Made by a program: the position numbers and the translations under genes | In this document: positions 9,069 to 64,000 of the stretch, one piece after another | How the letters are laid out: every line of letters starts with the position of its first letter | Position numbering within the stretch: the first letter of the stretch is position 1 | Notes under the pieces: model-generated | Databases searched by the model: none | Seen by the model: the letters and a program-made list of their open reading frames with translations, nothing else | What the model was told of the DNA's origin: nothing | From: a virus | IMG/VR virus record: IMGVR_UViG_3300049491_000383 | Span: 72,080 to 136,079 of that record | Length of the DNA stretch: 64,000 bases | Reading direction: 5' to 3' (one strand)

Positions 9069-9167
9069 TGGTAGGAGAACTTGGAATCGAACCAAGGACG
9101 TGCCCCTATCTGGGGCCACGGAGTGCCGGTGTATAAGGCCGGTGTTTTACCACTAAACTATTCTCCC
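9069..9167 (-). tRNA. tRNA-Ile(TAT) with long variable arm
   Basis: Loop CT-TAT-AC, ~28-nt variable region with GCCC/GGGC hairpin, ACCA end. Confidence 0.8.
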
Positions 9168-9330: not shown

Positions 9331-9609
9331 TTATCCTTTTGCAATTTTCCTGGCTGCAGAAATCTCGTTTTGGAACTCTTCTCTATTTCTAGCAAACAGA
9401 TCCCTGACTTCATCTCCAGTTAGTTCCCTGAATCTTCCGTCGGTCCATTCACTGTATGGACGAATCCATGCTTCTCGATCAAATGGCCAAACATGATTAT
9501 ATACAGTCCAGAGACTTTTGTCAACGGTACTCTTTGCCTCTGGCACAAGAACTTCATAGACACCACCATACCGGTGTTGGTAATATTTGTATACTTGTGG
9601 TTTTGTCAT
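9331..9609 (-). CDS. DUF1653-like protein
   Basis: YQHRYGGVYEVL...WIRP..W.DGRF. Confidence 0.65.
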   Translation of the reverse strand: MTKPQVYKYYQHRYGGVYEVLVPEAKSTVDKSLWTVYNHVWPFDREAWIRPYSEWTDGRFRELTGDEVRDLFARNREEFQNEISAARKIAKG

Positions 9610-15546: not shown

Positions 15547-15666
15547 AGAATCAGTTTTACTTTGCCTGCTGCTCTACCAACTGAGCTACCTCACTATTTC
15601 TAGTGAAGGCGGGACTCGAACCCACGACCGTCTGGTTATATTAAGTTTTGTTGCGGAATTGATTCT
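15547..15666 (-). ncRNA. YrlA-like circularly permuted tRNA mimic closed by the CMGCAA helix (family member A)
   Basis: AGAATCA-ATTCCGCAAC...T-arm GTGGG-TTCGAGT-CCCGC, acceptor stem closed by GAAA, D-arm GCTC-AGTTGGTA-GAGC...TGATTCT. Confidence 0.8.
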
Positions 15667-17939: not shown

Positions 17940-19025
17940 TCAATCCTCTTCCTTTAATAGGAATTTGTTGCTGATGGTTTTGAAACTAAAACCACCATCC
18001 ATTCTCTTGTAAACAAGACCTTCACGAATCGCATGCTTGATGCTAGGACCTTCTGCAAATGCAAGCAACTTATCCACATCAAACAACCCGAATTCATACA
18101 ATGGAACATCCATATGCAGAACAGGGACATGATGTACCATCTCGCGATTTACACCTCGTGCCCAAAGCTCATCCAAAATCAGATGACGTTCTCTCGGAGG
18201 TACATAACCACCTGTGGTAATATTGAAGATGTCAAACACAAACAATTTATGCGAAGCAAATGCCTCACGATTCTTCTGTATACCCGGGCCCATGAGCTCA
18301 GCTTGTACAGCAAAATCTCTGTCAAAAGAGCGCATAATATCGTGTAGCCCGCTGTCTACAAACATGCGTACCAAACTATTGTGCTCGTTTTTAGGATCAT
18401 CCAACTTCAGTTCCCAATTACGACCGCAAACACCCGGAACACCATCCTTTACAAATGCAGTAAAGGAAGTACCATCGAACTTCATGCTGATTTCGTAACG
18501 TGCATCCGCGTTATCAACAAAGATATCGCGCTTCATGTTTTGGCAACGTTCCTGATCAGTCTTTCGAATGAATGCAGGGAAGTTACCCTTCACTTGACCA
18601 GCAAGTTCTGTAGGAATGGCAGCTTCATACTTCTGGATATCCAACAAGTCAGATACGTCGGTGCCGACCATAAAGAACTCTGAAAGTTCCTGTCCTTCAT
18701 CTTCGTCGGAATCAATAAAGTCGTTGAAGAACAAATTCACAGGTAATGCAAGGCCCTGGCTGAGCTGACCACGCAACTTAATAGTCTTGATACGGAAACC
18801 CTCACGCTCTCCCATTCTCTTGGAGGAGTTTCTGCGCAAGATTTCGAATTCGGGACGGACAGGCAAATGGCTGTCGATTTCAAAGTAGACACACAAATCG
18901 CCCACATTGAATTCAGACTTCTTTACCACGCATTGCCAGCCATCAATTTTTGCCAGCTGAACTAAGTCCGCACCTTCGATAGGTAGCAGATCATCAATCC
19001 TACGTATTGTTGCAAGCTTTCTCAT
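17940..19025 (-). CDS. ATP-dependent RNA ligase, DRB0094/Rnl5 family
   Basis: N-terminal OB fold (I.GAD..., YFEIDS, KLRGQLSQGL), KTDQER, motif I KFDG, EGLVYK, SFK.IS. Confidence 0.9.
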   Translation of the reverse strand: MRKLATIRRIDDLLPIEGADLVQLAKIDGWQCVVKKSEFNVGDLCVYFEIDSHLPVRPEFEILRRNSSKRMGEREGFRIKTIKLRGQLSQGLALPVNLFFNDFIDSDEDEGQELSEFFMVGTDVSDLLDIQKYEAAIPTELAGQVKGNFPAFIRKTDQERCQNMKRDIFVDNADARYEISMKFDGTSFTAFVKDGVPGVCGRNWELKLDDPKNEHNSLVRMFVDSGLHDIMRSFDRDFAVQAELMGPGIQKNREAFASHKLFVFDIFNITTGGYVPPRERHLILDELWARGVNREMVHHVPVLHMDVPLYEFGLFDVDKLLAFAEGPSIKHAIREGLVYKRMDGGFSFKTISNKFLLKEED

Positions 19026-34902: not shown

Positions 34903-34978
34903 TGGCGCGTTGTCGGGGGATCGAACCCCGTCACCTTCAGATTTAGAATCCGCCGCTCTCCCACTGAGCTAACAACGC
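34903..34978 (-). tRNA. amber suppressor tRNA (anticodon CTA)
   Basis: Full cloverleaf, anticodon arm GCGGA-TT-CTA-AA-TCTGA, G73, CCA. Confidence 0.85.
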
Positions 34979-37222: not shown

Positions 37223-37610
37223 GGTATTTTGGTTTACAAGGTATAACCTACCCCGGAGTCTAGTGTTTCTTAGGCAGCTAGGAGCATCATGTCGCTATCA
37301 GCCAAGGCTGAAAGGTCAAGAGCTGTCTCAGTTGTAATTGCGTTTGCTTTTACGGTTTGTGCTTGATTTACGGTCATCGCCTACCGTGTTGTCCACTCTC
37401 GTACTCTTTACCCCGTCGAATACCTGGTCCGCCCCATTATTAAACATACCGTGAAAAATTCGAATTCTCTTTCCTGCCCATACAACAGGTGACCGTCTTT
37501 AAGCTGGAGTCGAACCAGCAATAACCCATTCGATATGTTTAATGGTGGAGCGGGCGGGAATCGAACCCGCGTCCGGAACACTTTTCTGTTCGCTTCATAC
37601 AACAATAACT
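37222..37610 (-). ncRNA. ssrA: circularly permuted (two-piece) tmRNA
   Basis: The T-arm and ...CGCTCCACCA end (37543) lie upstream of the 5' end GGGGCGGACCAGGTATTCGAC (37435). G3:U70 is present. The tag ORF at 37347-37270 reads ANAITTETALDLSALADSDMMLLAA*. Confidence 0.9.
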
Positions 37611-54980: not shown

Positions 54981-55036
54981 AGGATACCTTTTTGCTTTTT
55001 TACAGAAAAGTTGATTTGGGTTGCGGAATGTATCCT
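54981..55036 (-). ncRNA. CCGCAA-helix RNA with Tyr(GUA)-like loop (member F)
   Basis: AGGATAC-ATTCCGCAAC...CTTTT-CTGTAAA-AAAG...GTATCCT. Confidence 0.7.
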
Positions 55037-55099
55037 TTAGAAACAGTGACCGGCTTTATCATTATATCAGATAGTGATTATAAAGCTCTCGGCCGAAAA

Positions 55100-55194
55100 T
55101 GGCGGATGGTGATGGATTTGAACCACAACCCTTTGGAAAGGGTCAAATATGATTCCAGTGATTTGCGTGCTTGCCTATCGCACTTCAACCATCC
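55100..55194 (-). tRNA. tRNA-Ser(GGA)-like, irregular anticodon stem
   Basis: GGATGGT/ACCATCC-G-CCA, variable arm ACCCTTT/AAAGGGT, CT-GGA-AT. Confidence 0.6.
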
Positions 55195-55197
55195 AGA

Positions 55198-55698
55198 TTA
55201 AAGACTATTACTTACGAAATAATCCCTTATGGTATTGTAGGTATGGGGCAATTTAAACCCTAACCCAAGAACATACCGTGTTTCACCTAAATTTAATACT
55301 GAATGAGTAGATTGAGTATTTAGCAGATACATTCCGCCGGGCTCATATACCAATTCTTCTATATTTTTCTTATTACTATGCTCTGCGTCTTCTCCATACA
55401 CCGTATGTGAGTGACCAGACCATATTTCAATGTTTAGTGCTGCTGTTCTATCTGCATCCACATGCCATTTATACCAATAATTAGCAGGTGTACGGAAAAT
55501 GTTTGATTTTACACCAAACTCTTTCATTATTTTGTCTACAACAGGATCAATTATAACACCCTGCGATATGTTAAGTACATCAAAACCATAACCAATGTTG
55601 TTCCAGGTATGATCTTTTGAGAAAATGTATTCCCTAACTTCGTTTAAAGATTGAAACTGTGAGTTGAGCTTGATGAAATTGTTATTCATATCTAACAT
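55198..55698 (-). CDS. 2OG-Fe(II) oxygenase-like protein
   Basis: WHVD..R.AALN, LLNT...HSV.N...RY. Confidence 0.6.
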   Translation of the reverse strand: MLDMNNNFIKLNSQFQSLNEVREYIFSKDHTWNNIGYGFDVLNISQGVIIDPVVDKIMKEFGVKSNIFRTPANYWYKWHVDADRTAALNIEIWSGHSHTVYGEDAEHSNKKNIEELVYEPGGMYLLNTQSTHSVLNLGETRYVLGLGFKLPHTYNTIRDYFVSNSL

Positions 55699-56242
55699 AC
55701 TTACTAAAAATTTCTAAACTCTCTGTAAGCGTTACCCAATTGTTATTCTTCTTAAAGAAAACACTTACACTCCATCGTTTCTCGTTGCTTGTGTTAAACA
55801 CTGCATGTGGAGTACCGGCATCTATCAGGCACCATCCAGATAATGCTTGTTCTTCTAGCTGAACACTATCTGCGAAATCAAAAGGTACATACACGGTACC
55901 GATAGCCGAATTCTTTGACACTTTATCTGCCCGGCAACGAGCATTGATGTCATACCAGCGCATTGTGCTACCAGTACCACCAATGACATAGTTAAGTTTG
56001 CTTCTACTTTCCCATTTATCTGGTAGTAGTGTGCCATCTATGTGACAACTTCTACTATTTGTATTAGGTTGCATATGAAATATCTCCATATGTCCTATAG
56101 TGAGTCCCAGATTCTGGAATAGTTTATGGATATCGGGGTGTATCTGTGTGTCAGTATCTAACCTAGTATGATATTGATCCTTTGGTAAATCTGCATTTAC
56201 AAAGGGAAACATATCTAGATTGATGTTGACACTATACTTCAT
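55682..56242 (-). CDS. 2OG-Fe(II) oxygenase-like protein
   Basis: HIDG, PHAV.N...RWSVS. Confidence 0.6.
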   Translation of the reverse strand: MKYSVNINLDMFPFVNADLPKDQYHTRLDTDTQIHPDIHKLFQNLGLTIGHMEIFHMQPNTNSRSCHIDGTLLPDKWESRSKLNYVIGGTGSTMRWYDINARCRADKVSKNSAIGTVYVPFDFADSVQLEEQALSGWCLIDAGTPHAVFNTSNEKRWSVSVFFKKNNNWVTLTESLEIFSKYVRYE

Positions 56243-57057
56243 TTATAAATCTTTGCGTGATCGAATGCAATTCTATGCAGAACACGCTCTTCCATATTCT
56301 CAAAATACCAACGCTTGTGAATACTTAACCATTGTTCAGAGATAACAATATCGCCATCTTGCCAATTATGATGGTACATGTATTTTTCTTGCAGTACATG
56401 TGCCTTAAGTTTCTCAAGTATAGTACGAAACTTAGTTTCTTCACAGTCCTTGAAGCCAAAGATTTGTAAGAATGGCAAAAATAACCCTGTCTCACCCTCT
56501 TCGTTAGTTTGAACTAGCTTAATTGGATTGTTTAGGTTGACGTGATCTTTGAAATATTCGGAAGTTGAGTATTGACCGTTCTTGTATCCACAATAGATTT
56601 CAATATCCTTAATCTGTTCTTTTAGCAATGGATGCAAATCACGATAACTCATGATGTTGTTTATCCAGCTTGTTCTAGAGCCGACAGTACCCTGTTCAGC
56701 ATAAAGCCAAATTAGGGGATTTCTTACAGGATTAGATGGTTGATTAGCGTGCCAATCAAGATCTTCTTTATGGCCAAACAGTCCTTCTTGGCCGTCAGCA
56801 TTCTTTTTACCTGTAACTCTAATGACATTGTCAGAGAGTGCTATGTGCTTTGCTCTCTCCATGTTGTTCTGTTGGACATTACCTGCAATTTTGCAGAATC
56901 TAACCTCATCATCTAGCGTTAGCGTCTGCTGCGGGAATACAACTACCATGTTCTTTACGGTTAGGCGGATAACCTCTCTTACTTCGTCTTCTGACAAAGT
57001 TCGAATGTCATCTCTAATGATTATTGTCCAACCATTCTCGTGTAGCTCAATCTTCAT
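56239..57057 (-). CDS. TauD/TfdA-family dioxygenase
   Basis: LDWHAN, H.WQDGDIVI, IHKR, R.LHR. Confidence 0.85.
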   Translation of the reverse strand: MKIELHENGWTIIIRDDIRTLSEDEVREVIRLTVKNMVVVFPQQTLTLDDEVRFCKIAGNVQQNNMERAKHIALSDNVIRVTGKKNADGQEGLFGHKEDLDWHANQPSNPVRNPLIWLYAEQGTVGSRTSWINNIMSYRDLHPLLKEQIKDIEIYCGYKNGQYSTSEYFKDHVNLNNPIKLVQTNEEGETGLFLPFLQIFGFKDCEETKFRTILEKLKAHVLQEKYMYHHNWQDGDIVISEQWLSIHKRWYFENMEERVLHRIAFDHAKIYK

Positions 57058-57259
57058 TCTTCATTCCCCATTTAATCTTAAGCCATACTCTTTCGTGTAT
57101 ATAATAATCAAGGCTTAGGAGAACATGAAGTGCGGTAGCAAAGCCTGCTGAGGCCATAATGCTTCCTGTAAATAAAAATGTCCAGAAGATAGTGAATAGC
57201 CAGGCAGTAAGCCTATAACTTATCATACGAGCAATTGTTCTCTTATGTGTTTCAATCAT
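57047..57259 (-). CDS. DUF2061-like small membrane protein
   Basis: ETHKRT.ARMISYR...YYIHERVW..I.WG. Confidence 0.75.
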   Translation of the reverse strand: MIETHKRTIARMISYRLTAWLFTIFWTFLFTGSIMASAGFATALHVLLSLDYYIHERVWLKIKWGMKNED

Positions 57260-57310
57260 AATATGCCTAAACAAATATTTATATGATGTGTTAACACGCG
57301 ATTTTGTTTC

Positions 57311-57384
57311 TGGTGCGGGCGGCGGGAATCGAACCCGCGAATGAACATTGGCAATGTTCGAGTATACCACTTACTTACACACGC
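57311..57384 (-). tRNA. tRNA-Gly(GCC) with A73
   Basis: Loop TT-GCC-AA; discriminator A instead of U. Confidence 0.82.
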
Positions 57385-57389
57385 ATATA

Positions 57390-57481
57390 TGGCGGAAGAA
57401 GGACGTGTCGATCGCCTACCGGCTCGTCACCGATACACCTGTTTTCAAGGCAGAGACTGAGGCCGCTCAGTGTCATCTTCC
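57390..57481 (-). tRNA. selC-like (8/4) tRNA-Ser(TGA)
   Basis: GGAAGATG/CTTCTTCC-G-CCA, 6-bp D-stem ACTGAG-CGGC-CTCAGT, CT-TGA-AA, long variable arm, T-loop ATCGACA. Confidence 0.72.
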
Positions 57482-57485
57482 ATAT

Positions 57486-57561
57486 TGGTACCTGGTGTAG
57501 GACTCGAACCTACATAAGTCATCTTGTAAGGATGGCGGTTAACCTCTCACACCAACCAGGC
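57486..57561 (-). tRNA. tRNA-Val(TAC)
   Basis: Loop CT-TAC-AA. Confidence 0.85.
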
Positions 57562-57569
57562 ATTGTTTG

Positions 57570-57642
57570 TCTACGTCATACGGGCTCCGATCCCGTGACC
57601 CCCGCCCTTGCCGGCGGTGCTCTCCCTCTGAGCTAATGGCGT
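57570..57642 (-). pseudogene. tRNA-like element with 6-nt anticodon loop and no CCA
   Basis: D-arm GCTC/GAGC, CCGCC-GGCAAG-GGCGG, T-loop ATCGGAG. Confidence 0.5.
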
Positions 57643-57675
57643 CTCTGTATAACTCTTCAACGAAGAGATAGTGAA

Positions 57676-57751
57676 TGGTGCCGCGGACTGGAATCGAACC
57701 AGTGACACATAACTTTTCAGGCTACTGCTCTACCAACTGAGCTACCACGGC
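57676..57751 (-). tRNA. tRNA-Phe(GAA)
   Basis: Canonical, loop CT-GAA-AA. Confidence 0.93.
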
Positions 57752-58020
57752 ATAAATTTTGGTGGACCTAAAGGTGTATAGGATAGTGACTTCTATGGGC
57801 CCATTGACTTGGTGGATAGTGCAGGAATCGAACCTAGCGAGCGCCCGTCGGCTTTCACAGTACCATACTAAATGGGAATCGAACCCAAATACTCTCCATT
57901 TACTACCCATAACTGACGGAATCTACGGGATTCGAACCCGCCACTCCCTATGTTGGAAGCTACTCCAAGACTTGTTCAGCATAGTGCGCCTAGGGCCGAA
58001 CTTATCACAGATCTCATAAC

Positions 58021-58097
58021 TGGTACCCCCGGTTGGATTCGAACCTACAACCATCAACTTTTGAGGCTGACCGCGCTACCAATTAGCGTACGGGGGC
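58021..58097 (-). tRNA. tRNA-Leu(CAA) with short variable loop
   Basis: Loop CT-CAA-AA; paralog of the tRNA at 50832. Confidence 0.85.
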
Positions 58098-58106
58098 ATT
58101 GAAATT

Positions 58107-58182
58107 TGGAGTGTACGATAGGAGTCGAACCTACATAAAACAGGGTTGCAATCTGTTCCCTAGCCTTTCGGGTCACGCACAC
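58107..58182 (-). tRNA. tRNA-Cys(GCA)
   Basis: Loop TT-GCA-AC, U73. Confidence 0.85.
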
Positions 58183-58302
58183 ATTGTAAGGCACCCGCCG
58201 GAGGGAATCTAACCCTCGATATATCCCAGCATCTAGGGACCTTGTTCATTTACAGCCGGAAGAGTTTGCTCCGGGCAATGACGACAGCATTGAAAACTAT
58301 TA

Positions 58303-58375
58303 GGGGTGACTAACGGGGTTCAAACCCGTACAAAGATCTTCACAGGATCTGATGCTTTCATTACATCATAGTCAC
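58303..58375 (-). tRNA. tRNA-His(GTG), no encoded CCA
   Basis: Loop CT-GTG-AA, C73. Confidence 0.7.
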
Positions 58376-58396
58376 ACCTAATAGCTCTTAGGTGTT

Positions 58397-58470
58397 TGGG
58401 GTGTCTTGGGGAATCGAACCCTCGCCTGCTGATTCACAGTCAGCTTTGCTACCACTACACTAAAGGCACC
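58397..58470 (-). tRNA. tRNA-His(GTG)
   Basis: G-1:C73, loop CT-GTG-AA. Confidence 0.88.
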
Positions 58471-58482
58471 ATTGAATAAAAC

Positions 58483-58598
58483 AGGTTCGCATTATACGTG
58501 CTACCACTACACTAAAGCGACGACCAACCTCGCTCCCAGGACTCGAACCTGGCCCTTCCATTTTCAAGATGAATAATTTTTGTTGCTGAAACGAACCT
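58483..58598 (-). ncRNA. circularly permuted tRNA(UGA) closed by the CAGCAA helix (member G)
   Basis: AGGTTCG-TTTCAGCAAC, TTCAT-CTTGAAA-ATGGA, T-arm CCAGG/CCTGG, looped acceptor GAGCGA/TCGCTT, D-arm, CGAACCT. Confidence 0.8.
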
Positions 58599-58615
58599 AA
58601 CGGTCGAAATAAATC

Positions 58616-58717
58616 AGGATGTTTGGCTTTGGACCAGGAGTCGAACCCTATTGCCATGCCCCCTCTGGGCTGGTCCGCTGAGTTTTGGTAGCGATTTTAG
58701 ATTGCTGAAACCATCCT
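58616..58717 (-). ncRNA. CAGCAA-helix RNA with T-loop domain (member H)
   Basis: AGGATG-GTTTCAGCAAT...GG-TTCGACT-CC...CATCCT. Confidence 0.7.
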
Positions 58718-58724
58718 TTAAACT

Positions 58725-58800
58725 TGGTACCCCAGAGGAGATTCGAACTCCCACACTTAGTTTCTAAGACTAATACGACTGCCAATTACGTCACCGGGGC
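58725..58800 (-). tRNA. tRNA-Leu(TAG) with short variable loop
   Basis: Loop CT-TAG-AA, variable loop GTGT. Confidence 0.85.
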
Positions 58801-58807
58801 ATATATA

Positions 58808-58884
58808 TGGTGCGGTAGGTGGGACTCGAACCCACAAGATTTAGTTTCTAAGACTAACACGTATACCAATTCCGTCACAACCGC
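58808..58884 (-). tRNA. tRNA-Leu(TAG) with short variable loop
   Basis: Loop CT-TAG-AA, variable loop ATCT. Confidence 0.87.
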
Positions 58885-58976
58885 ATAAAATTTTCGGAGT
58901 AGTGGCAGGGCATCCCCACTTGGAATCCCACATAATCCTGTTGGTCTGTTGTGTGGCCACACATCATTCCACGTCC

Positions 58977-59054
58977 TGGCTCCAGGAACTGGAATCGAAC
59001 CAGTCTAATCTTGGTTAACAGCCAAGCGGTTGACACCATGTCGCCTCTCCCGGA
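58977..59054 (-). tRNA. tRNA-Asn(GTT)
   Basis: Loop CT-GTT-AA, G73. Confidence 0.82.
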
Positions 59055-59128
59055 ATTGTATTTTCAAAGTAGGTACCCGTCTACCAGCCCACAGTGGACC
59101 CAATAGAACATCCTCGTATACTTCAATC

Positions 59129-59204
59129 TGGCCCGTTCTGCAGGATTCGAACCTACTTCATGTGCTCTTCAGGCACCTGCTATGACCACATCAGCTAAGA
59201 ACGG
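59129..59204 (-). tRNA. tRNA-Phe(GAA)
   Basis: Loop CT-GAA-GA; unusual C1:G72 and G73. Confidence 0.82.
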
Positions 59205-59209
59205 ATATA

Positions 59210-59286
59210 TGGCGGGCCGTGAGCGATTCGAACGCCCAACACGCAGTTTTGGAGACTGCTGTTCTGCCAATTGGAACTAACGACCC
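59210..59286 (-). tRNA. tRNA-Trp(CCA)
   Basis: Loop CT-CCA-AA, G73. Confidence 0.9.
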
Positions 59287-59365
59287 ATAATTTAGATTGG
59301 GCTTCACACCCACAATTGTCTGTTGCCTAGCGCATTGTTCAGGCTTACAGCTAACCCATCGATTT

Positions 59366-59441
59366 TGGCTCCGTGAGAACGATTCGAACGCTCCTCTTCC
59401 GGTTAACAGCCGGAGGTACTCACCGAGAATACGATCACGGA
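59366..59441 (-). tRNA. tRNA-Asn(GTT)
   Basis: Loop CT-GTT-AA, G73. Confidence 0.85.
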
Positions 59442-59442
59442 A

Positions 59443-59832
59443 TTATCTTATTACAAATTCATCATACTTCAAACTTTTTCCAAATGTGATACTATGTTTT
59501 ACCAGTATCTTATTTTTTGGAACTAATGCTTTTAGCTCTGTCTGGATATGATACAAAAATATCATATCCCAGTCTTGCATTGATGCATCCTTACATGTAG
59601 TGTTGGTACCATTGTTACCACCCTTTACATTTATTTCAAATCTTTCAGCGCCGGCATCAAATTGGCTACTTGTCTTTACTTGTACCTTAAATAATTTACT
59701 ATCTTTAGATACAACCAGATCCCAATCTTCGCTATCAGTTAACGGTATACATACGCCATAACCAGCTTTGGTAAAATATGCAATTGCCTGGCCGAGACCA
59801 GCGTTACCTTGCTTTAAACTATTTTGGAACAT
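59443..59832 (-). CDS. PD-(D/E)XK homing-endonuclease-like protein
   Basis: G..G...AI.YF...GY.V..P..D...WDLVV...KVQVKT. Confidence 0.8.
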   Translation of the reverse strand: MFQNSLKQGNAGLGQAIAYFTKAGYGVCIPLTDSEDWDLVVSKDSKLFKVQVKTSSQFDAGAERFEINVKGGNNGTNTTCKDASMQDWDMIFLYHIQTELKALVPKNKILVKHSITFGKSLKYDEFVIR

Positions 59833-60003
59833 ATAACTCCTGACTATAAGTCAGTTATTTATCACCGTTTGCATTGGAGCCCAATGGTCGTGTATACCGA
59901 TAGCGACGCGATTGTCGGGCATTGATTTGTCTGACATATATAGGAATTGAACCTAGTAGATCCTCTAGTCGGGGACCGGCCGCCATGCAATATGTCAATA
60001 CTC

Positions 60004-60074
60004 TGGCAGTGTATATAGGATTCTAACCTAGTCACCCTTCCGAAACAGGGCAGGTGTCCGCACGGAGATACACT
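60004..60074 (-). tRNA. atypical tRNA-like gene with 8-nt anticodon loop; identity unclear
   Basis: AGTGTAT/ATACACT-G-CCA, T-loop TTAGAAT, GCCCT-GTTTCGGA-AGGGT. Confidence 0.5.
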
Positions 60075-60082
60075 ATTGTTTC

Positions 60083-60156
60083 TGGTAGGTCCTAAAGGAT
60101 TCGAACCTTTGTGAATCGCCTATCAAGCAATCATTCTACCATTGAATTAAGGACCC
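60083..60156 (-). tRNA. tRNA-Ile(GAT)
   Basis: Loop TT-GAT-AG. Confidence 0.88.
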
Positions 60157-60161
60157 ATTAT

Positions 60162-60233
60162 TGGAGCGGGCGACAGGATTCGAACCTGCATCTTTCAGCT
60201 TGGAAGGCTAAACGTATTCCCTAAACCGCACGC
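60162..60233 (-). tRNA. tRNA-Gly(TCC), reduced D-arm
   Basis: Loop CT-TCC-AA, U73. Confidence 0.75.
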
Positions 60234-60359
60234 ATATACGTGCCAGGTGATTTATAACGCGATTCACTGACTCCCGCGACTTACGGATGGGTTCACATGT
60301 ACAAGGTTAACCCACCTATCTTATGTTCTTACCTAGCACCGAAGTGCCAGGATTTTGTC

Positions 60360-61388
60360 TTACGCTGGGACGTTAACCCAGATCATCAGGCCCATTCCCT
60401 TGGTCAACTTACGGTTAACCGACGTGGATTGCACGTAGATTTCGTAGTTGGCATGGTTGCCCGGAGCAAGCTTGACATCGCCGGAGTGCGGGAGGCCGAG
60501 CAGGTCGCGTGCATTGAAGCCACTGTAGACAGCACCGGACGTCTTGTCACGGATGGCAATCTGTTTGTAGCCCTGGACGGTTTCAGTCTTCTTCAACTCG
60601 TAGAACGCACAGCCCTTTGTAAAGGTAATGCCCTGGTCGTTGACGAAATCACGAATCTGTGCGCCATCATTGGCAGCATCCACTTCGTAGACTTCAACTT
60701 GCTTGGAGATGTCAACCAACTCGGTCTTCACTTCCTTCAGGGTCACATTGCTCAGGTCCGCGTAGAACTTGTCGGTTGCATTGATACCGCGTGCCTTGGC
60801 AGCATAAAAACCCTTGAAAGCACTCTTGGTCATCACAGTCGACGCAGCAATACCACGTTCCGATTGTTCCCATTCCTGGATGTTGCCTTCCGGAATACCG
60901 TATTGGGTAAGCTGATGCTTATAGCCCGCAGGTACTCGGAACACAAATGTCCAACGATCGGTCATTTGCAGCTTCTTGATCAGCTTCGCAATTGCCGGAC
61001 CGGTGTACTTGCGACTTGCATTTTCGCCACCGTCAGTTGTGGTGAACACCACAAAGGATACGCTGGGATCATCCGCATCGGGCACTGCCTGGAGTTGTTC
61101 AACCAATTCACCCACTGCATCAAACAGCGGAGTACCACGTCCACGAGCACTGTAGCTAGACTCCAGCAACGGCTTCAGTGCCGAAACAGAGGAGTTACTA
61201 ACGACAGTACGCACTTCATCAGTGCTGCCGTATCCAAGTTCGACCACAGTCACAACGGTATCAATACCGTGGGTGGCTGCTTCTTCCTTGATGGATTCAA
61301 TGTTTTCGTTGTAATCACGTGCGGCGTGGCGTGCAATGTTAGCCATCGAGCCGGAGTGATCTCGTGCAAGTCCTTGGTATACTTTCAT
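60360..61388 (-). CDS. vWA-domain protein
   Basis: MIDAS DHSGSM, TPLFDAV, TTDGGENAS; C-terminal VQSTSVNRKL. Confidence 0.85.
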   Translation of the reverse strand: MKVYQGLARDHSGSMANIARHAARDYNENIESIKEEAATHGIDTVVTVVELGYGSTDEVRTVVSNSSVSALKPLLESSYSARGRGTPLFDAVGELVEQLQAVPDADDPSVSFVVFTTTDGGENASRKYTGPAIAKLIKKLQMTDRWTFVFRVPAGYKHQLTQYGIPEGNIQEWEQSERGIAASTVMTKSAFKGFYAAKARGINATDKFYADLSNVTLKEVKTELVDISKQVEVYEVDAANDGAQIRDFVNDQGITFTKGCAFYELKKTETVQGYKQIAIRDKTSGAVYSGFNARDLLGLPHSGDVKLAPGNHANYEIYVQSTSVNRKLTKGMGLMIWVNVPA

Positions 61389-61455
61389 GTGTGCCTTTCT
61401 GTTTGATGTAGTGAATCTACCTCTACACTATAATACAGTTGGCTCTTTGTGTCAA

Positions 61456-61572
61456 TGGTGCCGCCGCCGGGAATCGAACACCGGATCTACTCCTTGTAAT
61501 GGAATTTAGATTGCTGTATGTATCCTTGACAGGATCACCTTTTTAGTTGTGTTGCCTTTACACTACAGCGAC
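61456..61572 (-). ncRNA. CCA-ending tRNA(UAC)-like RNA with the CAGCAA helix inserted between the D and anticodon arms (member I)
   Basis: GTCGCTG/CGGCGGC-A-CCA, D-arm, insert ATCCT-GTCA-AGGAT-ACATACAGCAAT, TTCC-ATTACAA-GGAG, T-arm. Confidence 0.78.
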
Positions 61573-61723
61573 ATTGATTGGAGTCCGTTTATACGCATTA
61601 TATGCAATACAGTGATAGGGAAAACGGATAAAAATTGGCCCCACGATGACATGATTACAGTGGTCAACAACAGGGATTGATTCAATCATCCTAATATGAT
61701 ACAGTGATCAGGGAAGACGATTT

Positions 61724-61799
61724 TGGTGGGTTCGCCCGGCATCGAACCGGGATCTCGCTGCTTAAGAGGCAGGACTCTAGCCATTTGAGTTACAAACCC
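61724..61799 (-). tRNA. tRNA-Lys(CTT)
   Basis: Loop CT-CTT-AA. Confidence 0.9.
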
Positions 61800-61813
61800 G
61801 TAACTAAGAAACT

Positions 61814-61904
61814 TGGCGGGCGCGTCACGGAGTCGAACCGGACTTTAGCGTATTTGGAGAACGCCTCATCAGACCATAAGCCTAATATAAAGCCTTAGTC
61901 GCCC
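61814..61904 (-). tRNA. tRNA-Trp(CCA)-like with expanded D region
   Basis: GCGT-T-CTCCAAA-T-ACGC, T-loop TTCGACT, G73 CCA; long D-region hairpin. Confidence 0.55.
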
Positions 61905-61909
61905 ATAAC

Positions 61910-61984
61910 TGGCATCCTGTACGAGAATCGAACTCGCCTGAATAGGTTGAAAGCCTACGGACCTCACCAGAAGTCAAACAGGAT
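61910..61984 (-). tRNA. tRNA-Glu(TTC)
   Basis: Loop CT-TTC-AA, G73. Confidence 0.82.
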
Positions 61985-62268
61985 ATAAATTTTGAAGTTG
62001 TTATCCAAACACACGAGGAGAATCGAACTCCCACACACGCCTTGCTGACGCCGCACTGCCATTATGCTACATGCTCATTTCTAAAGACCTACGTCAACAG
62101 TTACAGAAGAAACGTGGATACAACTATTAAAGTCAGTTGACGCTGACTATAATTCTTTGAATGCTATTTGCAGGGGAGTCGAACACGCCACCTTAATGTA
62201 TCTAGATTGGTAAACACACTAATGTACCGACCAGAGATCCAATCACCTCTATGCACGGTTGCAAAATC

Positions 62269-62343
62269 TGGTGGCTCAACTAGGAATCGGACCTAGGACC
62301 TACGCCTTATCAAGACGGTGCTCTGCCATTGAGCTACTGAGCC
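62269..62343 (-). tRNA. tRNA-Ile(GAT)
   Basis: Loop TT-GAT-AA; T-loop TCCGATT. Confidence 0.88.
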
Positions 62344-62469
62344 AAATTAATGTAAGTTTCGTTTGTGGTGTTGAATAGGCATTACGGCCTTGATACAAAT
62401 CTGCGCTCTCTGTGTCCGCGCATAAGCAACCCTTACGTTACCAACGTATCGAATAGTTGTATCATTGAT

Positions 62470-62543
62470 TGGTCAGGATACTCAGAATCGAACTGAGGCT
62501 TCCACGCTCCGAAGGTGGGATGATACCATTTCATCATATCCTG
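62470..62543 (-). tRNA. tRNA-Pro(CGG)
   Basis: C1:G72, loop TT-CGG-AG. Confidence 0.82.
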
Positions 62544-62810
62544 TTAAAACTTAGAAATCTTCTGAGACAGGTCCTTTGCTTCTTCTAGGATTCCCATTGC
62601 CTTAGGATCTTCTTTCTTTGGTTCTTCTTTCTTTACTTCTTCCTTCTTTGCTTGACCGCAGCAACCACACTTTTCAGTATGTTGAAGTGCTCTGGTATAA
62701 ATTTTCCAGAACGCAAATAGATTGCCTAAGACAACCATAAGAAGAGTAAAAATAGTAAACAATCCAAACATTAACGGTACGTACATAAGATATCTCCAAC
62801 TGGATATCAT
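62544..62810 (-). CDS. small membrane protein
   Basis: Likely start MISSWRYL; TM segment and charged tail. Confidence 0.45.
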   Translation of the reverse strand: MISSWRYLMYVPLMFGLFTIFTLLMVVLGNLFAFWKIYTRALQHTEKCGCCGQAKKEEVKKEEPKKEDPKAMGILEEAKDLSQKISKF

Positions 62811-62850
62811 ATTTATGTGTAAGCCGTTCCAGCTTAAAATTGTAGTTAAT

Positions 62851-62928
62851 TGGTCTGCGTGGCTGGGTTCGAACCAGCGGCCTCCGAGTTCCAAGCCCGG
62901 CCGTCTACCTGACTGACAATACACGCAG
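62851..62928 (-). tRNA. tRNA-Pro(TGG)
   Basis: Loop CT-TGG-AA. Confidence 0.88.
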
Positions 62929-63078
62929 TTATAAAATTCAGTAGATCCGTATCATTAGCGTTCGTGCTACGTGCCCAGTTACTTCCCTATCGTTTCAGGG
63001 TTCACTTATACTGAAATACATTTGTTTAGAAGCGTAGGGGGCGTCAAAAGCTGATTATACATTCTTCTAAACTAAAAT

Positions 63079-63153
63079 TGGTGCTCCGTGGAGGATTCGA
63101 ACCCCCCTCTCTAGACTACAAAACTAGCATTCTACCGAATGAACTAACAGAGC
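63079..63153 (-). tRNA. tRNA-Thr(TGT)
   Basis: Loop TT-TGT-AG. Confidence 0.85.
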
Positions 63154-63154
63154 A

Positions 63155-63562
63155 TTAATAACTTTTACCCTTGGCATATAGTTGGCGGCGATAATGTCGT
63201 CCATTACCATAGTTTTTCGCCTTATATGTAGGGGTCTTGCTATGGCAATTCGGACACAGAAGTTCTATGTTATCTTCCATATCATTCTGACTATTGCCAT
63301 CTTTATGTTCGAGTTCAAGTGTTATAGGTTCACCCAACCATGTATCATTATGACACATATTGCATTCACCAGCTTGTTTCTCAAACAAATATCTTTTCAA
63401 CCATCCGGGCGAGCCTGCTACACGAGTAGATTTTCCCGTAAGTTTCCATTCAGCTACACGAAGTTCGTATATAGCATCCTGTTGACATTTATGATTACAG
63501 TATTTTCCATTTGACCAGTTTGGTTTATGGACATCTTTCTTACATTGTTGGCAAATAAACAT
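63155..63562 (-). CDS. HNH homing endonuclease
   Basis: YCN..C, LELEHKDGN...N..LLCPNCH. Confidence 0.9.
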   Translation of the reverse strand: MFICQQCKKDVHKPNWSNGKYCNHKCQQDAIYELRVAEWKLTGKSTRVAGSPGWLKRYLFEKQAGECNMCHNDTWLGEPITLELEHKDGNSQNDMEDNIELLCPNCHSKTPTYKAKNYGNGRHYRRQLYAKGKSY

Positions 63563-63594
63563 GTCTTGCTAATATAATTGGCTAAGCTAAGCCA

Positions 63595-63623
63595 ATTATA
63601 TTACGTAGATCTTCTTTTGTCAA
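63595..63623 (-). promoter_or_regulatory. consensus sigma70 promoter overlapped by a 14-bp inverted repeat
   Basis: TTGACA-17 nt-TATAAT; TAATATAATTGGCT/AGCCAATTATATTA. Confidence 0.7.
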
Positions 63624-63629
63624 CCAAAT

Positions 63630-63704
63630 TGGCGCCGTAGACGAGAATCGAACTCGCTTGCATCCGCTAGACAGGCGGCGACCCTTCCAAAGAGCTACTA
63701 CGGC
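63630..63704 (-). tRNA. tRNA-Asp(GTC)
   Basis: Loop CT-GTC-TA, G73. Confidence 0.8.
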
Positions 63705-63749
63705 AAATATGTTGAGTATTTATATAGACGCTCTCCAGCGCCATTGTTA

Positions 63750-63820
63750 TGGTGGACCTGTGGGGAGTTGAACCCCAAGCGTCGCATTGCAAGTGCAATT
63801 CCTGACCCGTCAGCAAGCCC
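63750..63820 (-). tRNA. tRNA-Ala(TGC), compact D-arm
   Basis: G3:U70, A73, loop CT-TGC-AA; D-arm CTGAC-GG-GTCAG. Confidence 0.78.
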
Positions 63821-63967
63821 ATATTAAATTCCTAAGACTACCTGCAGGTAGTTGTCGTCTCGAGAGGGCGAGTTTTAACAAACCATACTTCACGTTAAAA
63901 CCAATGCCTGGCTTTCGCCGGCGGGCGCTACTTGGGACTCAAGCCCTTCGTCTATCTTAGGAAAGAT

Positions 63968-64000
63968 TGGTGGGTGCTATAGGATTCGAACCTATTCAGG
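63968..64000 (-). tRNA. 3' part of a tRNA, truncated by the window edge
   Basis: T-arm ATAGG-TTCGAAT-CCTAT and ...CACCCACCA. Confidence 0.75.

What the first reader, a model, noticed from the sequence alone, without database searches (positions are those of the whole stretch)
61456..61572. Linear CCA-ending tRNA with the CAGCAA module inserted at position 26/27, the un-permuted isomer of the family
The RNA has a normal acceptor stem with ACCA, a D-arm and a T-arm, and a Val(UAC)-like loop (TTCC-AT TAC AA-GGAG). About 44 nt are inserted between the D and anticodon arms, containing the family helix closed by a loop (ATCCT-GTCA-AGGAT) followed by ACATACAGCAAT. This is the circular permutation of member G, which shows that the module is grafted at a fixed tRNA position. 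It could be a chargeable tRNA tethered to a Ro60-like protein. A second vWA-domain gene (60360-61388) follows immediately downstream.
Basis: partly seen in the sequence, partly recalled or inferred. Interest (0 to 1): 0.88.

Follow-up and report, generated by a model that had tools for sequence, protein, structure and literature searches.

The report
Phage tRNA carrying Ro60-partner handle
A giant phage encodes a complete, CCA-ended tRNA-shaped RNA with a conserved 42-base docking hairpin spliced into its hinge, one of a large phage family that travels with a Ro60-like protein and swaps its anticodon unusually fast, which does not seem to be described in print.

Summary
On the minus strand, 61572->61456 is a 117-nt cloverleaf (7-bp acceptor, D arm, UAC anticodon arm, T arm, ACCA) with 42 nt inserted between positions 26 and 27. 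The insert is the family "handle" (helix + CAGCAA) closed by a loop. Rfam's tRNA model scores it 28.8 bits (cut-off 29). ARAGORN calls tRNA-Val only when the insert is removed in silico.

It is not a one-off. One narrow DNA pattern plus a covariance model found 62 such RNAs in viral contigs. 21 of 28 base pairs show compensatory changes. The handle helix itself covaries in copies found independently of the pattern.

A DUF2828/DUF7788 (Ro60-like) gene is present in 49 of 78 handle-bearing records, in 5 of 5 near-complete ones, and in 0 of 21 control records.

The anticodon changes completely between near-identical copies, and 11 of 62 loops have 8 nt, so ordinary decoding is unlikely.

The downstream gene has a vWA fold. 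Its adjacency to handle RNAs recurs in three arrangements, but the gene is neither necessary nor sufficient for them.

Most likely reading: a Y-RNA-like adaptor or bait for the Ro60-like protein. Binding, charging and expression are untested. This scan had already noted the handle family in this genome.

The parts
61456..61572 (-). Whole RNA: 117-nt tRNA-shaped RNA with the handle inserted at 26/27 and an encoded ACCA end
   Evidence: (110.7 bits with model R2)
61566..61572 (-). Acceptor stem 5' strand (RNA 1-7); pairs with 61460-61466
   Evidence: In the family, 7 of 7 acceptor pairs show changes on both sides and 98.6% of cells are paired.
61549..61563 (-). D arm (RNA 10-24) with A14, G18, G19 and A21
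   Evidence: invariant columns; 3 of 4 pairs with double changes
61539..61547 (-). A-rich 5' linker of the insert (RNA 26-34)
   Evidence: Unpaired in the MFE fold; A-rich in the family alignment
61520..61538 (-). Closed handle hairpin (RNA 35-53): GUG-AUCCU-GUCA-AGGAU-AC
   Evidence: The sixth pair covaries (UA 32, CG 5, GC 5, AU 4) and the seventh is G-C in 50 of 62. Other core helices occur in L126, L135 and L118.
61511..61516 (-). CAGCAA motif (RNA 57-62), preceded by the 3-nt spacer AUA
   Evidence: C, G, C and A were fixed by the search pattern in the 62 hits. The motif recurs as CMGCAA in the 8 linear members of the window.
61506..61510 (-). 3' linker of the insert (RNA 63-67)
61489..61505 (-). 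Anticodon arm (RNA 68-84); anticodon UAC at 61496-61498
   Evidence: The loop is hypervariable in the family.
61467..61484 (-). T arm (RNA 89-106) with one bulged U and the loop UUCGAUU
   Evidence: The bulge recurs in the close clade and in L135.
61456..61466 (-). Acceptor 3' strand, discriminator A and CCA
61597..61602 (-). TATAAT box 24 nt upstream of the mature 5' end; probable own promoter, which implies a leader removed by RNase P (inferred)
   Evidence: The stretch ATATAATGCGTATAAACGGA is conserved in L005. The consensus scan did not flag it, because there is no -35 box.
61427..61455 (-). Sigma-70-like promoter (TTGACA-17-TATAGT) of the vWA gene, starting one base after CCA
   Evidence: 11 of 12 matches. 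TTGACA after CCA is conserved in L001-L006.
60360..61388 (-). P0001: 342-aa protein with an N-terminal vWA domain (DxSxS at residues 10-14) and a C-terminal domain of unknown fold
58483..58598 (-). Permuted sister RNA ('member G'): handle at the termini, acceptor stem closed by a loop
14096..15529 (-). DUF2828 + DUF7788 (Ro60-like) protein, the presumed handle-binding partner, 46 kb away
   Evidence: E 1e-26 and 3.8e-51; nearest named clusters are TROVE + vWA_Ro60; a lead only

Best explanation
The element is a stable small RNA cut out of the phage's tRNA-gene row like any tRNA: RNase P at the 5' end, and an encoded CCA at the 3' end. It folds into a normal L-shaped tRNA body. From its hinge (position 26/27) a 42-nt module hangs on two A-rich single-stranded linkers. 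The module is a 7-bp helix with a one-base irregularity, conserved A-AG/CU-G distal ends, and the single-stranded CAGCAA. It is the same 'handle' that forms the termini of the phage's other small RNAs.

The handle most likely docks the phage's DUF2828/DUF7788 protein, a Ro60-like TROVE + vWA ring. On this reading the RNA is a Y-RNA analogue. The handle holds the ring, and the tRNA body is the effector module.

The anticodon triplet is replaced wholesale between otherwise near-identical copies, and many loops have 8 nt. The body therefore probably serves as a bait or adaptor for proteins that read tRNA anticodon loops, not as a decoder. Candidates are host anticodon nucleases and the phage's own RNA-repair enzymes, such as the RNA ligase beside the Ro-like gene.

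Shown here: the structure, conservation and covariation; the co-occurrence and synteny with the Ro-like gene; the anticodon hypervariability.

Inferred: processing, binding of the handle to the Ro-like protein, and the bait function.
For: 1. A real, selected RNA.
- 62 model hits at 72 bits or more in 59 viral loci plus the window.
- 93.2% of pair cells are standard pairs against 73.6% in shuffles. 21 of 28 pairs have changes on both sides. The covariation score is 0.486 against 0.136, with 0 of 500 shuffles as high, and slid controls reach at most 0.117.
- tRNA tertiary nucleotides are invariant or nearly so: U8, A14, G18, the U54-U55 pair of the T loop, C56.

2. The handle is a module.
- The same architecture sits at the termini of 8 linear RNAs in the window.
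- Its helix covaries in copies not fixed by my pattern: ACUCU/AGAGU in L126, UUUCU/AGAAA in L135, AUUCU/AGAAU in L135 and L118. The CUG-NN-AAG ends are kept.

3. Link to the Ro60-like gene.
- PF25043 is present in 32 of 50 and 17 of 28 handle-bearing records, 49 of 78 in all and 48 over the cut-off.
- It is present in 5 of 5 records that are at least 90% complete.
- It is present in 0 of 21 control records that matched the DNA pattern without any tRNA context.
- In 8 loci the closed-handle tRNA lies 0.1-2.5 kb upstream of that gene on the same strand: L074, L090, L097, L029, L087, L058, L040, L073.
- In G134 the order is P0001 homolog, then five handle RNAs, then the Ro-like gene.

4. Not an ordinary decoder.
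- 29 different loops among 62 copies, 11 of them with 8 nt.
- Of 35 pairs at least 90% identical outside the loop, 9 differ in the anticodon. L062 and L010 differ at 3 of 114 positions outside the loop but at all 3 anticodon letters.
- The two outer anticodon-stem pairs are unpaired in 35 of 54 and 18 of 58 copies.
- The window already has two standard tRNA-Val(UAC) genes.

5. Precedent. Bacterial YrlA Y RNAs carry a tRNA-like domain, and M. smegmatis YrlA is cut by RNase P and receives CCA (PMC4201824, passages read).
Against: - No experiment or RNA-seq run shows the RNA, its ends, or any binding.
- In this window the Ro-like gene is 46 kb away.
- 29 of 78 handle-bearing records show no Ro-like gene. 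Almost all of these are fragments, but G004, estimated 71% complete, also lacks it.
- The handle has neither the GNCGAA motif nor the 5'/3'-end stem that define known Ro60 sites. No Rfam family other than tRNA matched.
- That the DUF2828/DUF7788 protein is Ro60-like rests here on Pfam names and a language-model look-alike search. A sequence search of the PDB found nothing.
- The window copy itself has a perfectly canonical 7-nt UAC loop with A73, which are ValRS-type features, so this copy could be charged.
- Val anticodons (UAC, CAC, GAC) make up about half of its close clade, which hints at some retained tRNA-Val function.
- The 5-bp core of the handle is invariant in the 62 hits only because my search pattern fixed it.
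Confidence: 0.55

Rival explanations
1. It is a working tRNA-Val(UAC). The insert is either tolerated during charging and decoding, or it is an intron-like element removed by a phage nuclease and the phage RNA ligase to give a 75-nt tRNA.
For: - All tRNA hallmarks, an encoded CCA and A73 + UAC are present.
- ARAGORN calls tRNA-Val once the insert is removed in silico.
- Val anticodons (UAC x4, CAC x3, GAC x2) are the commonest in the close clade.
- An RNA ligase gene lies in the window at 17940-19025.
Against: - There is no bulge-helix-bulge pairing at the junctions. Both flanks are A-rich and unpaired.
- At 42 nt and position 26/27, the insert does not fit group I introns.
- The same module forms the ends of linear RNAs, where it cannot be an intron.
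- The module is as conserved as the tRNA body, and more conserved than the anticodon.
- 8-nt loops and anticodon swaps occur on an unchanged body.
- Two standard tRNA-Val(UAC) genes already exist in the window.
Confidence: 0.15
2. The tRNA body is only a scaffold. It gives the handle precise RNase P and 3'-end processing within the tRNA row and protects it from exonucleases. The anticodon arm has no target and simply drifts.
For: - The element sits in a row of 56 tRNA genes.
- Handles occur on many different bodies: minihelix, a body without an anticodon arm, a body without an acceptor stem.
- Chen et al. proposed that the tRNA fold protects YrlA from nucleases (PMC4201824).
Against: - Drift does not explain why positions 32, 33, 37 and 38 and the inner stem stay fixed while all three anticodon letters change between copies that are 97% identical elsewhere.
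- Drift does not explain why the loops remain recognisable anticodon loops: A/C at 32, U at 33, AA at 37-38.
Confidence: 0.15
3. The handle, or this tRNA in particular, is bound by the adjacent vWA protein P0001, instead of or together with the Ro60-like protein.
For: - A closed-handle tRNA lies directly upstream of a P0001 homolog in the window and 12 other contigs.
- It lies directly downstream of one in 2 contigs, L135 and L140.
- Arrays of linear-handle RNAs follow the homolog in L174 and L167.
- That makes three arrangements in all.
Against: - Only 12 of 80 loci with a P0001 relative have such a tRNA within 1.5 kb.
- P0001 relatives are found in 10 of 30 large handle-bearing records and in 3 of 5 complete ones.
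- The protein family is very large, with 9503 representatives at E <= 0.001. It occurs mostly in phage records without the Ro-like gene: 43 of 49 have no match.
- vWA domains usually bind proteins, not RNA (general knowledge).
Confidence: 0.1
4. It is a decaying tRNA gene disrupted by a small selfish insertion.
For: - It scores just under Rfam's tRNA cut-off.
- The T stem has a bulge.
- Some relatives look damaged: L107:789-899 has lost the hairpin loop, and L033:8597-8710 has a non-canonical T loop.
Against: - Compensatory changes in every stem across 62 copies.
- The insertion point is always the same.
- The gene order is conserved down to 55% protein identity.
Confidence: 0.03

Closest known systems
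Bacterial and phage YrlA Y RNAs with Ro60/Rsr (Chen et al. 2014, PMC4201824; passages read)
   Same: - A small RNA that combines a protein-docking helix with a tRNA-like domain (D and T arms, acceptor-like stem).
- Often encoded just upstream of a TROVE + vWA protein on the same strand.
- M. smegmatis YrlA is even cut by RNase P and gains CCA.
   Different: - YrlA's ends lie in the Ro-binding stem, and that stem replaces the anticodon arm. Here the ends are a true acceptor stem with an encoded CCA, a full anticodon arm is kept, and the docking helix is an internal closed hairpin at 26/27.
- The motif is CMGCAA next to the helix, not GNCGAAN0-1G.
- The protein is the DUF2828/DUF7788 type, not Pfam TROVE.
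- No Rfam model other than tRNA matched.
Thermus phage phiLo Ro60 with Yrl1 and Yrl2 (PMC12135203; abstract and passages read)
   Same: A phage-encoded Ro60-type ring with phage-encoded partner RNAs upstream of its gene. The authors propose that it co-opts a host RNA enzyme.
   Different: Those RNAs are canonical stem-bulge-stem Y RNAs with a CGAA motif. No complete tRNA body, anticodon arm or CCA end is described.
Ordinary phage tRNAs that counter tRNA-cleaving defences (PMC10264068, PMC11555353; search listing and abstracts only)
   Same: Phage tRNA genes whose anticodon loops differ from the host's in ways tied to host anticodon nucleases. The anticodon-focused variation here fits the same conflict.
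   Different: Those are standard 75-90-nt decoding tRNAs. None carries a protein-docking insert, and the swap of whole anticodons on one body is not described there, as far as the abstracts show.
Permuted and intron-bearing tRNA genes of archaea and red algae; tRNA introns at non-canonical positions (PMC4090602, search listing and abstract only; otherwise recalled)
   Same: Extra sequence at positions other than 37/38, and permuted gene order, as in the sister RNA at 58483-58598.
   Different: Those depend on a bulge-helix-bulge motif and a splicing endonuclease, and the extra sequence is discarded. Here there is no such motif, and the insert is the most conserved part.
Engineered 'tRNA scaffolds' for expressing RNA inserts in bacteria (recalled, not looked up)
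   Same: A foreign structured RNA carried inside a tRNA body, so that the cell processes and stabilises it.
   Different: The synthetic scaffolds replace the anticodon arm. This is a natural case at the hinge, with the anticodon arm retained.
tmRNA
   Same: A tRNA-like acceptor/T domain fused to another functional module. The window has its own permuted tmRNA at 37270-37604.
   Different: tmRNA lacks an anticodon arm and carries a reading frame. There is no sequence or model match to this element.

Membership tests
tRNA (Rfam RF00005) | Scores at or above the curated gathering score (29 bits) over the full model | tested here: not met
   28.8 bits, model positions 1-71 with a 53-nt insertion. 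It misses by 0.2 bits because of the insert.
tRNA (Rfam RF00005) | Cloverleaf with 7-bp acceptor, 4-bp D, 5-bp anticodon and 5-bp T stems, and the conserved U8, A14, G18-G19 and T-loop UUCRA | tested here: met
   The T stem has one bulged U.
tRNA (Rfam RF00005) | 7-nt anticodon loop with U33 and a purine at 37 | tested here: met
   AUUACAA in the window copy. 51 of 62 family members have 7-nt loops and 11 have 8-nt loops.
tRNA (Rfam RF00005) | Aminoacylation and use in decoding | not testable with these tools
   No RNA run holds the locus. This needs biochemistry.
Y RNA / YrlA (Ro60 partner RNAs) | Match to the curated Rfam model | tested here: not met
   cmscan at E <= 10 over 55000-64000 and over 61400-61720 lists only tRNA-clan matches and chance hits.
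Y RNA / YrlA (Ro60 partner RNAs) | Conserved GNCGAAN0-1G (CGAA) motif in the Ro-binding region (PMC4201824) | tested here: not met
   No G-N-C-G-A-A in the 117 nt, read directly. The family motif is CMGCAA.
Y RNA / YrlA (Ro60 partner RNAs) | Long stem formed by the RNA's own 5' and 3' ends that carries the protein site | tested here: not met
   The ends form the acceptor stem, and the site is an internal closed hairpin. The feature is met by the linear sister RNAs.
Y RNA / YrlA (Ro60 partner RNAs) | tRNA-like domain | tested here: met
Y RNA / YrlA (Ro60 partner RNAs) | Encoded within about 4 kb of the Ro60-type gene on the same strand | tested here: inconclusive
   The window copy is 46 kb away. 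Relatives lie 0.1-2.5 kb upstream in 8 loci. Co-occurrence is 49 of 78 against 0 of 21.
Y RNA / YrlA (Ro60 partner RNAs) | Physical binding to the Ro60-type protein | not testable with these tools
   No RNA-protein prediction or assay is available.
Archaeal/eukaryal-type tRNA intron | Bulge-helix-bulge motif across both exon-intron junctions | tested here: not met
   Both junctions lie in unpaired A-rich linkers.
Group I intron in a tRNA gene | A ribozyme core of hundreds of nt, usually in the anticodon loop | tested here: not met
   The insert is 42 nt at 26/27, and no intron family matched.
vWA domain (for P0001) | Rossmann-like vWA fold | tested here: met
   Residues 1-206: Z 19.4, rmsd 2.3, 174 aligned to 4wfq_A, and many A-domains at Z 14-18. 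Foldseek E about 1e-6. Model pLDDT 81.9.
vWA domain (for P0001) | MIDAS DxSxS motif | tested here: met
   D10, S12 and S14 are invariant in 27 and in 18 homologs.
vWA domain (for P0001) | Match to a Pfam VWA model | tested here: not met
   0 families at E <= 0.01

The most novel reading that the evidence does not exclude
Handle-tagged tRNAs are a phage counter-defence device. Each is a genuine, possibly chargeable, tRNA body that carries a Ro60-like ring on its hinge. Its anticodon is re-tuned quickly to match whichever host anticodon nuclease, or other tRNA-directed immune enzyme, the phage meets. The ring-bound bait either soaks up the nuclease or hands cut tRNA ends to the phage's RNA ligase. 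This would be a natural, programmable protein-on-tRNA adaptor and a new branch of Ro60/Y-RNA biology.
Probability: 0.2. Interest if true: 0.92.

Novelty: new variant of a known kind. Interest (0 to 1): 0.8.

Why it matters
The effector side of Ro60/Y-RNA particles is still poorly understood, and nobody knows why bacterial Y RNAs mimic tRNA. This is a widespread phage class (at least 62 distinct copies from one narrow search) in which the mimic is a complete tRNA and the docking module is a separable cassette. The anticodon is the fast-evolving part. That points directly at anticodon-reading proteins as the targets and makes the question testable with a handful of transcripts and one recombinant protein.

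It also shows that standard tRNA finders miss a whole class of tRNA-shaped genes in huge phages. ARAGORN missed the window copy and the copies in 6 of 6 related loci.

The design is a natural precedent for displaying a protein on a tRNA hinge.

My literature searches found no description of it. Supplementary tables of PMC4201824, which list phage YrlA candidates, could not be opened and might include relatives.

Tried and rejected
- **RNA expression.** The look-up of sequencing runs listed 24 DNA holders and no RNA holder. Expression, ends and splicing could not be examined, and I did not use read laying.

- **P0001 with the Ro-like protein.** Complex prediction gave 'no answer' (score 0.00). 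This is neither for nor against binding.

- **C-terminal domain of P0001 (residues 222-342).** Folded alone, pLDDT 88.7. The best structural match was Z 4.8, so no fold is assigned.

- **Ro-like protein against PDB sequences.** Nothing below E 0.35.

- **P0001 against the Ro-like protein by BLASTP.** No similarity.

- **Phage GenBank collection.** A distant blastn search with 60300-61800 hit only a tRNA-Lys.

- **A looser viral scan.** Of its 118 new loci, none held a handle; two showed a hairpin by chance. It was uninformative.

- **Cellular genomes.** 0 of its 120 stretches had a T loop downstream. This is weak evidence that the class is viral and no proof of absence.

- **First covariance model, R1.** It used the RNAalifold consensus and captured only 17 pairs. 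I replaced it with R2, which uses my own structure. The R2-fitted alignment leans towards that structure.

- **Rows dropped.** Before I left out of the 113 pattern loci those whose element was letter-identical to one already kept, and those that showed no tRNA context by eye. 21 of the latter served as controls, and L036 was not held. The sorting by eye is my own judgement.

- **Intron, pseudogene and mobile-insertion readings.** Considered and set low; see the rival explanations.

- **The look-up of encoding contigs.** I asked the synteny question with the search for related loci on alignment A6 instead.
Full report
**Context.** The window is part of a 136-kb fragment of a virus record, estimated 35% complete. 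Nearly all genes lie on the minus strand. ARAGORN tRNA or tmRNA genes, and Rfam finds a permuted tmRNA. The window also holds a DUF2828 + DUF7788 protein at 14096-15529 and an RNA ligase at 17940-19025. Earlier notes of this scan had already described a family of small RNAs in this genome that share a 'handle' and travel with that protein. They gave me the coordinates of the other members, which I re-read myself.

**The observation.** Read on the minus strand, 61572->61456 is a 117-nt RNA.
- It has a 7-bp acceptor stem, U8, a D arm with A14/G18G19/A21, and a 5-bp anticodon stem.
- The anticodon loop is AUUACAA (U33, UAC, A37).
- It has a 4-nt variable loop and a T arm with the canonical UUCGAUU loop and one bulged U.
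- It ends in discriminator A and an encoded CCA.
- Between position 25/26 and the anticodon stem lie 42 extra nucleotides: an A-rich linker, the hairpin GUG-AUCCU-GUCA-AGGAU-AC, the spacer AUA, CAGCAA, and a second short linker.

Rfam's tRNA model aligns end to end with a 53-nt insertion and scores 28.8 bits, 0.2 under the cut-off. ARAGORN does not see it. It calls tRNA-Val(tac) when the 42 nt are removed inside a script. RNAfold returns the cloverleaf plus the hairpin with unpaired linkers, z = -2.0.

**Relation to the family.** Eight minus-strand RNAs in the window share 5'-A-AG-N5-N3-CMGCAA ... N5-CU-G-3', and the two N5-containing strands pair. They lie at 15547, 15725, 16252, 30899, 50445, 54981, 58483 and 58616.
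- A mononucleotide-shuffled window gives 0-9 such hits of any sequence. The true members are set apart by the AG start and the CUG end.
- In the element studied here the same two strands are present in the opposite order and joined by a loop (CUG-UC-AAG).
- The permuted tRNA at 58483-58598 shares 19 of 24 letters with its acceptor/D-arm half and folds with the handle at its termini.

**It is a large, conserved class.**
- The downstream ORF (P0001) has six relatives in IMG/VR at 62-89% identity. All six loci carry the element upstream on the same strand. In five, TTGACA follows CCA directly. In L002 an HNH ORF has landed between them, with a duplicated 10-nt end. ARAGORN misses all six.
- The pattern ATCCTGNNAAGGATNNNNNCNGCA found 113 viral stretches. 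By eye about two thirds sit in a tRNA context.
- A covariance model with 28 pairs (R2) separates them cleanly. There are 62 hits at 72-130 bits in the window plus 59 loci. Ordinary tRNAs score below 58 bits.
- On the 62-sequence alignment, 93.2% of pair cells are standard pairs, against 73.6% in shuffles. 21 of 28 pairs have changes on both sides. The covariation score is 0.486 against 0.136, with 0 of 500 shuffles as high. Slid structures reach at most 0.117.
- Per helix: acceptor 7 of 7 pairs with double changes, D 3 of 4, T 4 of 5, anticodon stem 5 of 5. In the anticodon stem the two outer pairs are often unpaired.
- The alignment was fitted to my structure, and the five core handle pairs were fixed by the search pattern.
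- Independent copies, found through the protein instead of the pattern, show other cores: ACUCU/AGAGU in L126, UUUCU/AGAAA and AUUCU/AGAAU in L135, AUUCU/AGAAU in L118. They keep CUG-NN-AAG.
- The sixth handle pair covaries (UA 32, CG 5, GC 5, AU 4, other 16). It is followed by a one-base bulge and a G-C pair. The window copy has an A.G mismatch or a shifted register at the sixth position.

**The handle is portable.** In relatives it replaces the anticodon arm of a CCA-ended tRNA-like RNA (L135:3557-3646, and a copy in L118). It replaces the acceptor stem of an RNA that keeps the D arm, a Lys(UUU) anticodon arm and the T arm (L174:2812-2905). It also sits on minihelices (L015, L072, L117, L118). 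'A fixed tRNA position' therefore holds for this class only.

**Link to the Ro60-like protein.**
- PF25043 (DUF7788) was found in 32 of 50 and 17 of 28 records that carry handle RNAs, 49 of 78 in all. Open frames are 470-520 aa, like the window's 477 aa.
- It was found in 5 of 5 of those estimated at least 90% complete. It was found in 0 of 21 control records that matched the DNA pattern by chance, 5 of which are at least 90% complete.
- Most records without it are small fragments. G004, at 71% complete, is the main exception.
- In 8 loci the closed-handle tRNA is 0.1-2.5 kb upstream of the gene. This is the YrlA/Rsr arrangement described by Chen et al. (PMC4201824).
- That the protein is Ro60-like I could only support indirectly. 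The evidence is the Pfam names and a language-model look-alike search, in which 27 of 30 named neighbours outside its own families are TROVE + vWA_Ro60, score 0.92-0.93. A PDB sequence search was blank.

**The anticodon.**
- Among the 62 copies there are 29 different loops: 51 of 7 nt and 11 of 8 nt.
- Positions 32, 33, 37 and 38 and the inner stem (UUCC/GGAR) are conserved across clades whose acceptor, D and T stems have all changed.
- The anticodon itself flips between near-identical RNAs. L062 and L010 differ at 3 of 114 positions outside the loop but read UCU and GUC. The window (UAC) and L037 (GUC) differ at 9 of 110.
- 9 of 35 pairs at least 90% identical outside the loop have different anticodons.
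- In the close, P0001-linked clade the loops read UAC, CAC, GAC, UCC, UCU, GUC, CAU, GAU, and 8-nt forms.
- The discriminator follows the clade, not the anticodon.
- The body is not close to the phage's own tRNA-Val genes, and the window already has two standard tRNA-Val(UAC) genes.
- This pattern fits selection on what the loop displays better than it fits decoding or plain drift.

**The downstream gene.**
- P0001 has no Pfam hit. Its model (pLDDT 81.9) has a vWA fold in residues 1-206, Z 19.4 to 4wfq_A. The DxSxS motif is invariant. The C-terminal domain has no structural match.
- The family is very large: 1723 and 9503 hits.
- Of 80 viral loci with a relative, 12 have a closed-handle tRNA within 1.5 kb, 10 upstream and 2 downstream. 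L174 and L167 have arrays of linear-handle RNAs downstream.
- In G134 the order is P0001 homolog, then handle RNAs, then the Ro-like gene.
- Relatives occur in only 10 of 30 large handle-bearing records, and in 3 of 5 complete ones.
- Only 6 of 49 other P0001-bearing records have a DUF7788 match, 4 of them over the cut-off.
- The association is therefore recurrent where both exist, but not obligate.

**Mechanism.** I think the RNA is made from its own promoter. A conserved TATAAT lies at 61597-61602, 24 nt upstream. I think it is trimmed like a tRNA, folds as an L with the handle on flexible A-rich tethers, and is held through the handle by the Ro60-like ring. The tRNA body would then act as a Y-RNA-type effector module that presents an anticodon arm to tRNA-reading proteins. 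Only the structure, the co-occurrence and the anticodon behaviour are shown. The rest is inferred. The closest precedent is YrlA, including the RNase P-cut, CCA-tailed M. smegmatis form. This RNA fails three of YrlA's defining features (model match, CGAA motif, terminal stem), so I file it as a new variant that works like a Y RNA, not as a member.

**Literature.** Searches for DUF2828, Y RNA/Ro60/phage/tRNA-like, TROVE/RNA repair/phage, huge phages/tRNA/intron/decoy and phage tRNA/anticodon loop/PrrC returned no description of tRNAs with such an insert. The jumbo-phage survey notes only that some jumbo phages carry a TROVE protein, which in cells works with a tRNA-like partner (PMC7824862). 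Supplements were closed.

**Limits.** No transcript data exist. All relatives are metagenomic fragments. The counts depend on one narrow DNA pattern. The sorting into tRNA context and no context was done by eye.

Noticed in passing
window 9069-9167 (-): A 96-99-nt tRNA-like gene scores 58.2 bits with Rfam tRNA and 46.5 bits with my model. ARAGORN does not call it. It may carry an insert or a long arm.
   Followed up: no
window 61913-61985 (-) and 62008-62076 (-): Two further tRNA-like matches are missing from ARAGORN's list: a tRNA-Sec-like match of 42.2 bits (cut-off 47) and a tRNA match of 30.1 bits.
   Followed up: no
window 57572-57642 (-) and 34903-34978 (-): ARAGORN reports a tRNA with a two-letter anticodon 'ca', and an amber-reading tRNA labelled Pyl (cta).
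   Followed up: no
window 61573-61723 (-): The spacer between tRNA-Lys and the element holds two copies of a promoter-like motif, CCCT(G)ATCACTGTAT...ATAT(T/A)A. Between them is a small hairpin, AGGAUGAUUGAAUCAAUCCCUG, that resembles a handle helix without CAGCAA.
   Followed up: partly
L002:2428-2943: A 171-aa HNH-type ORF is inserted exactly between the element's CCA and the vWA gene's promoter. The last 10 nt of the RNA gene are duplicated at the ORF's end. It looks like a homing endonuclease that landed at the tRNA 3' end.
   Followed up: partly
L036:3190-4500 (GVMAG record): A giant-virus metagenome bin carries a tandem array of about 50-nt repeats. Each holds a closed handle-like hairpin (YCUG-NN-AAGR) followed by CAGCA. 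The record was not held for the protein search.
   Followed up: no
L059:6388-8300 and L092 (GVMAG records): In L059 a relative 28% identical to the Ro-like protein is followed directly by hairpins that end in ACAGCAAAC. The handle-protein pairing may reach giant viruses.
   Followed up: no
L135:3557-3646; L118 (-) near 9541 and 9624: There are CCA-ended tRNA-like RNAs in which the closed handle replaces the anticodon arm. Next to one of them is a minihelix (GGGAC...GUCCC-GCCA) that carries a closed handle.
   Followed up: partly
L174:2737-3399: Five linear-handle RNAs lie in a row after a P0001 homolog. One keeps the D arm, a Lys(UUU) anticodon arm and the T arm, with the handle in place of the acceptor stem. 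The Ro-like gene follows in the same record.
   Followed up: partly
G029 / L051:926-1936 (-): The P0001 homolog of this record has one in-frame TAA. The closed-handle tRNA upstream of it is intact, with a UAC loop.
   Followed up: no
L107:662-899 and L033:8597-8818: Two closed-handle tRNAs lie in tandem. The second copy looks damaged in each: the hairpin loop is lost in L107, and the T loop is non-canonical in L033.
   Followed up: no
window 61467-61484 (-) and relatives: A single bulged U or C sits at the same place in the T stem throughout the P0001-linked clade and in L135. This is unusual for tRNAs.
   Followed up: partly
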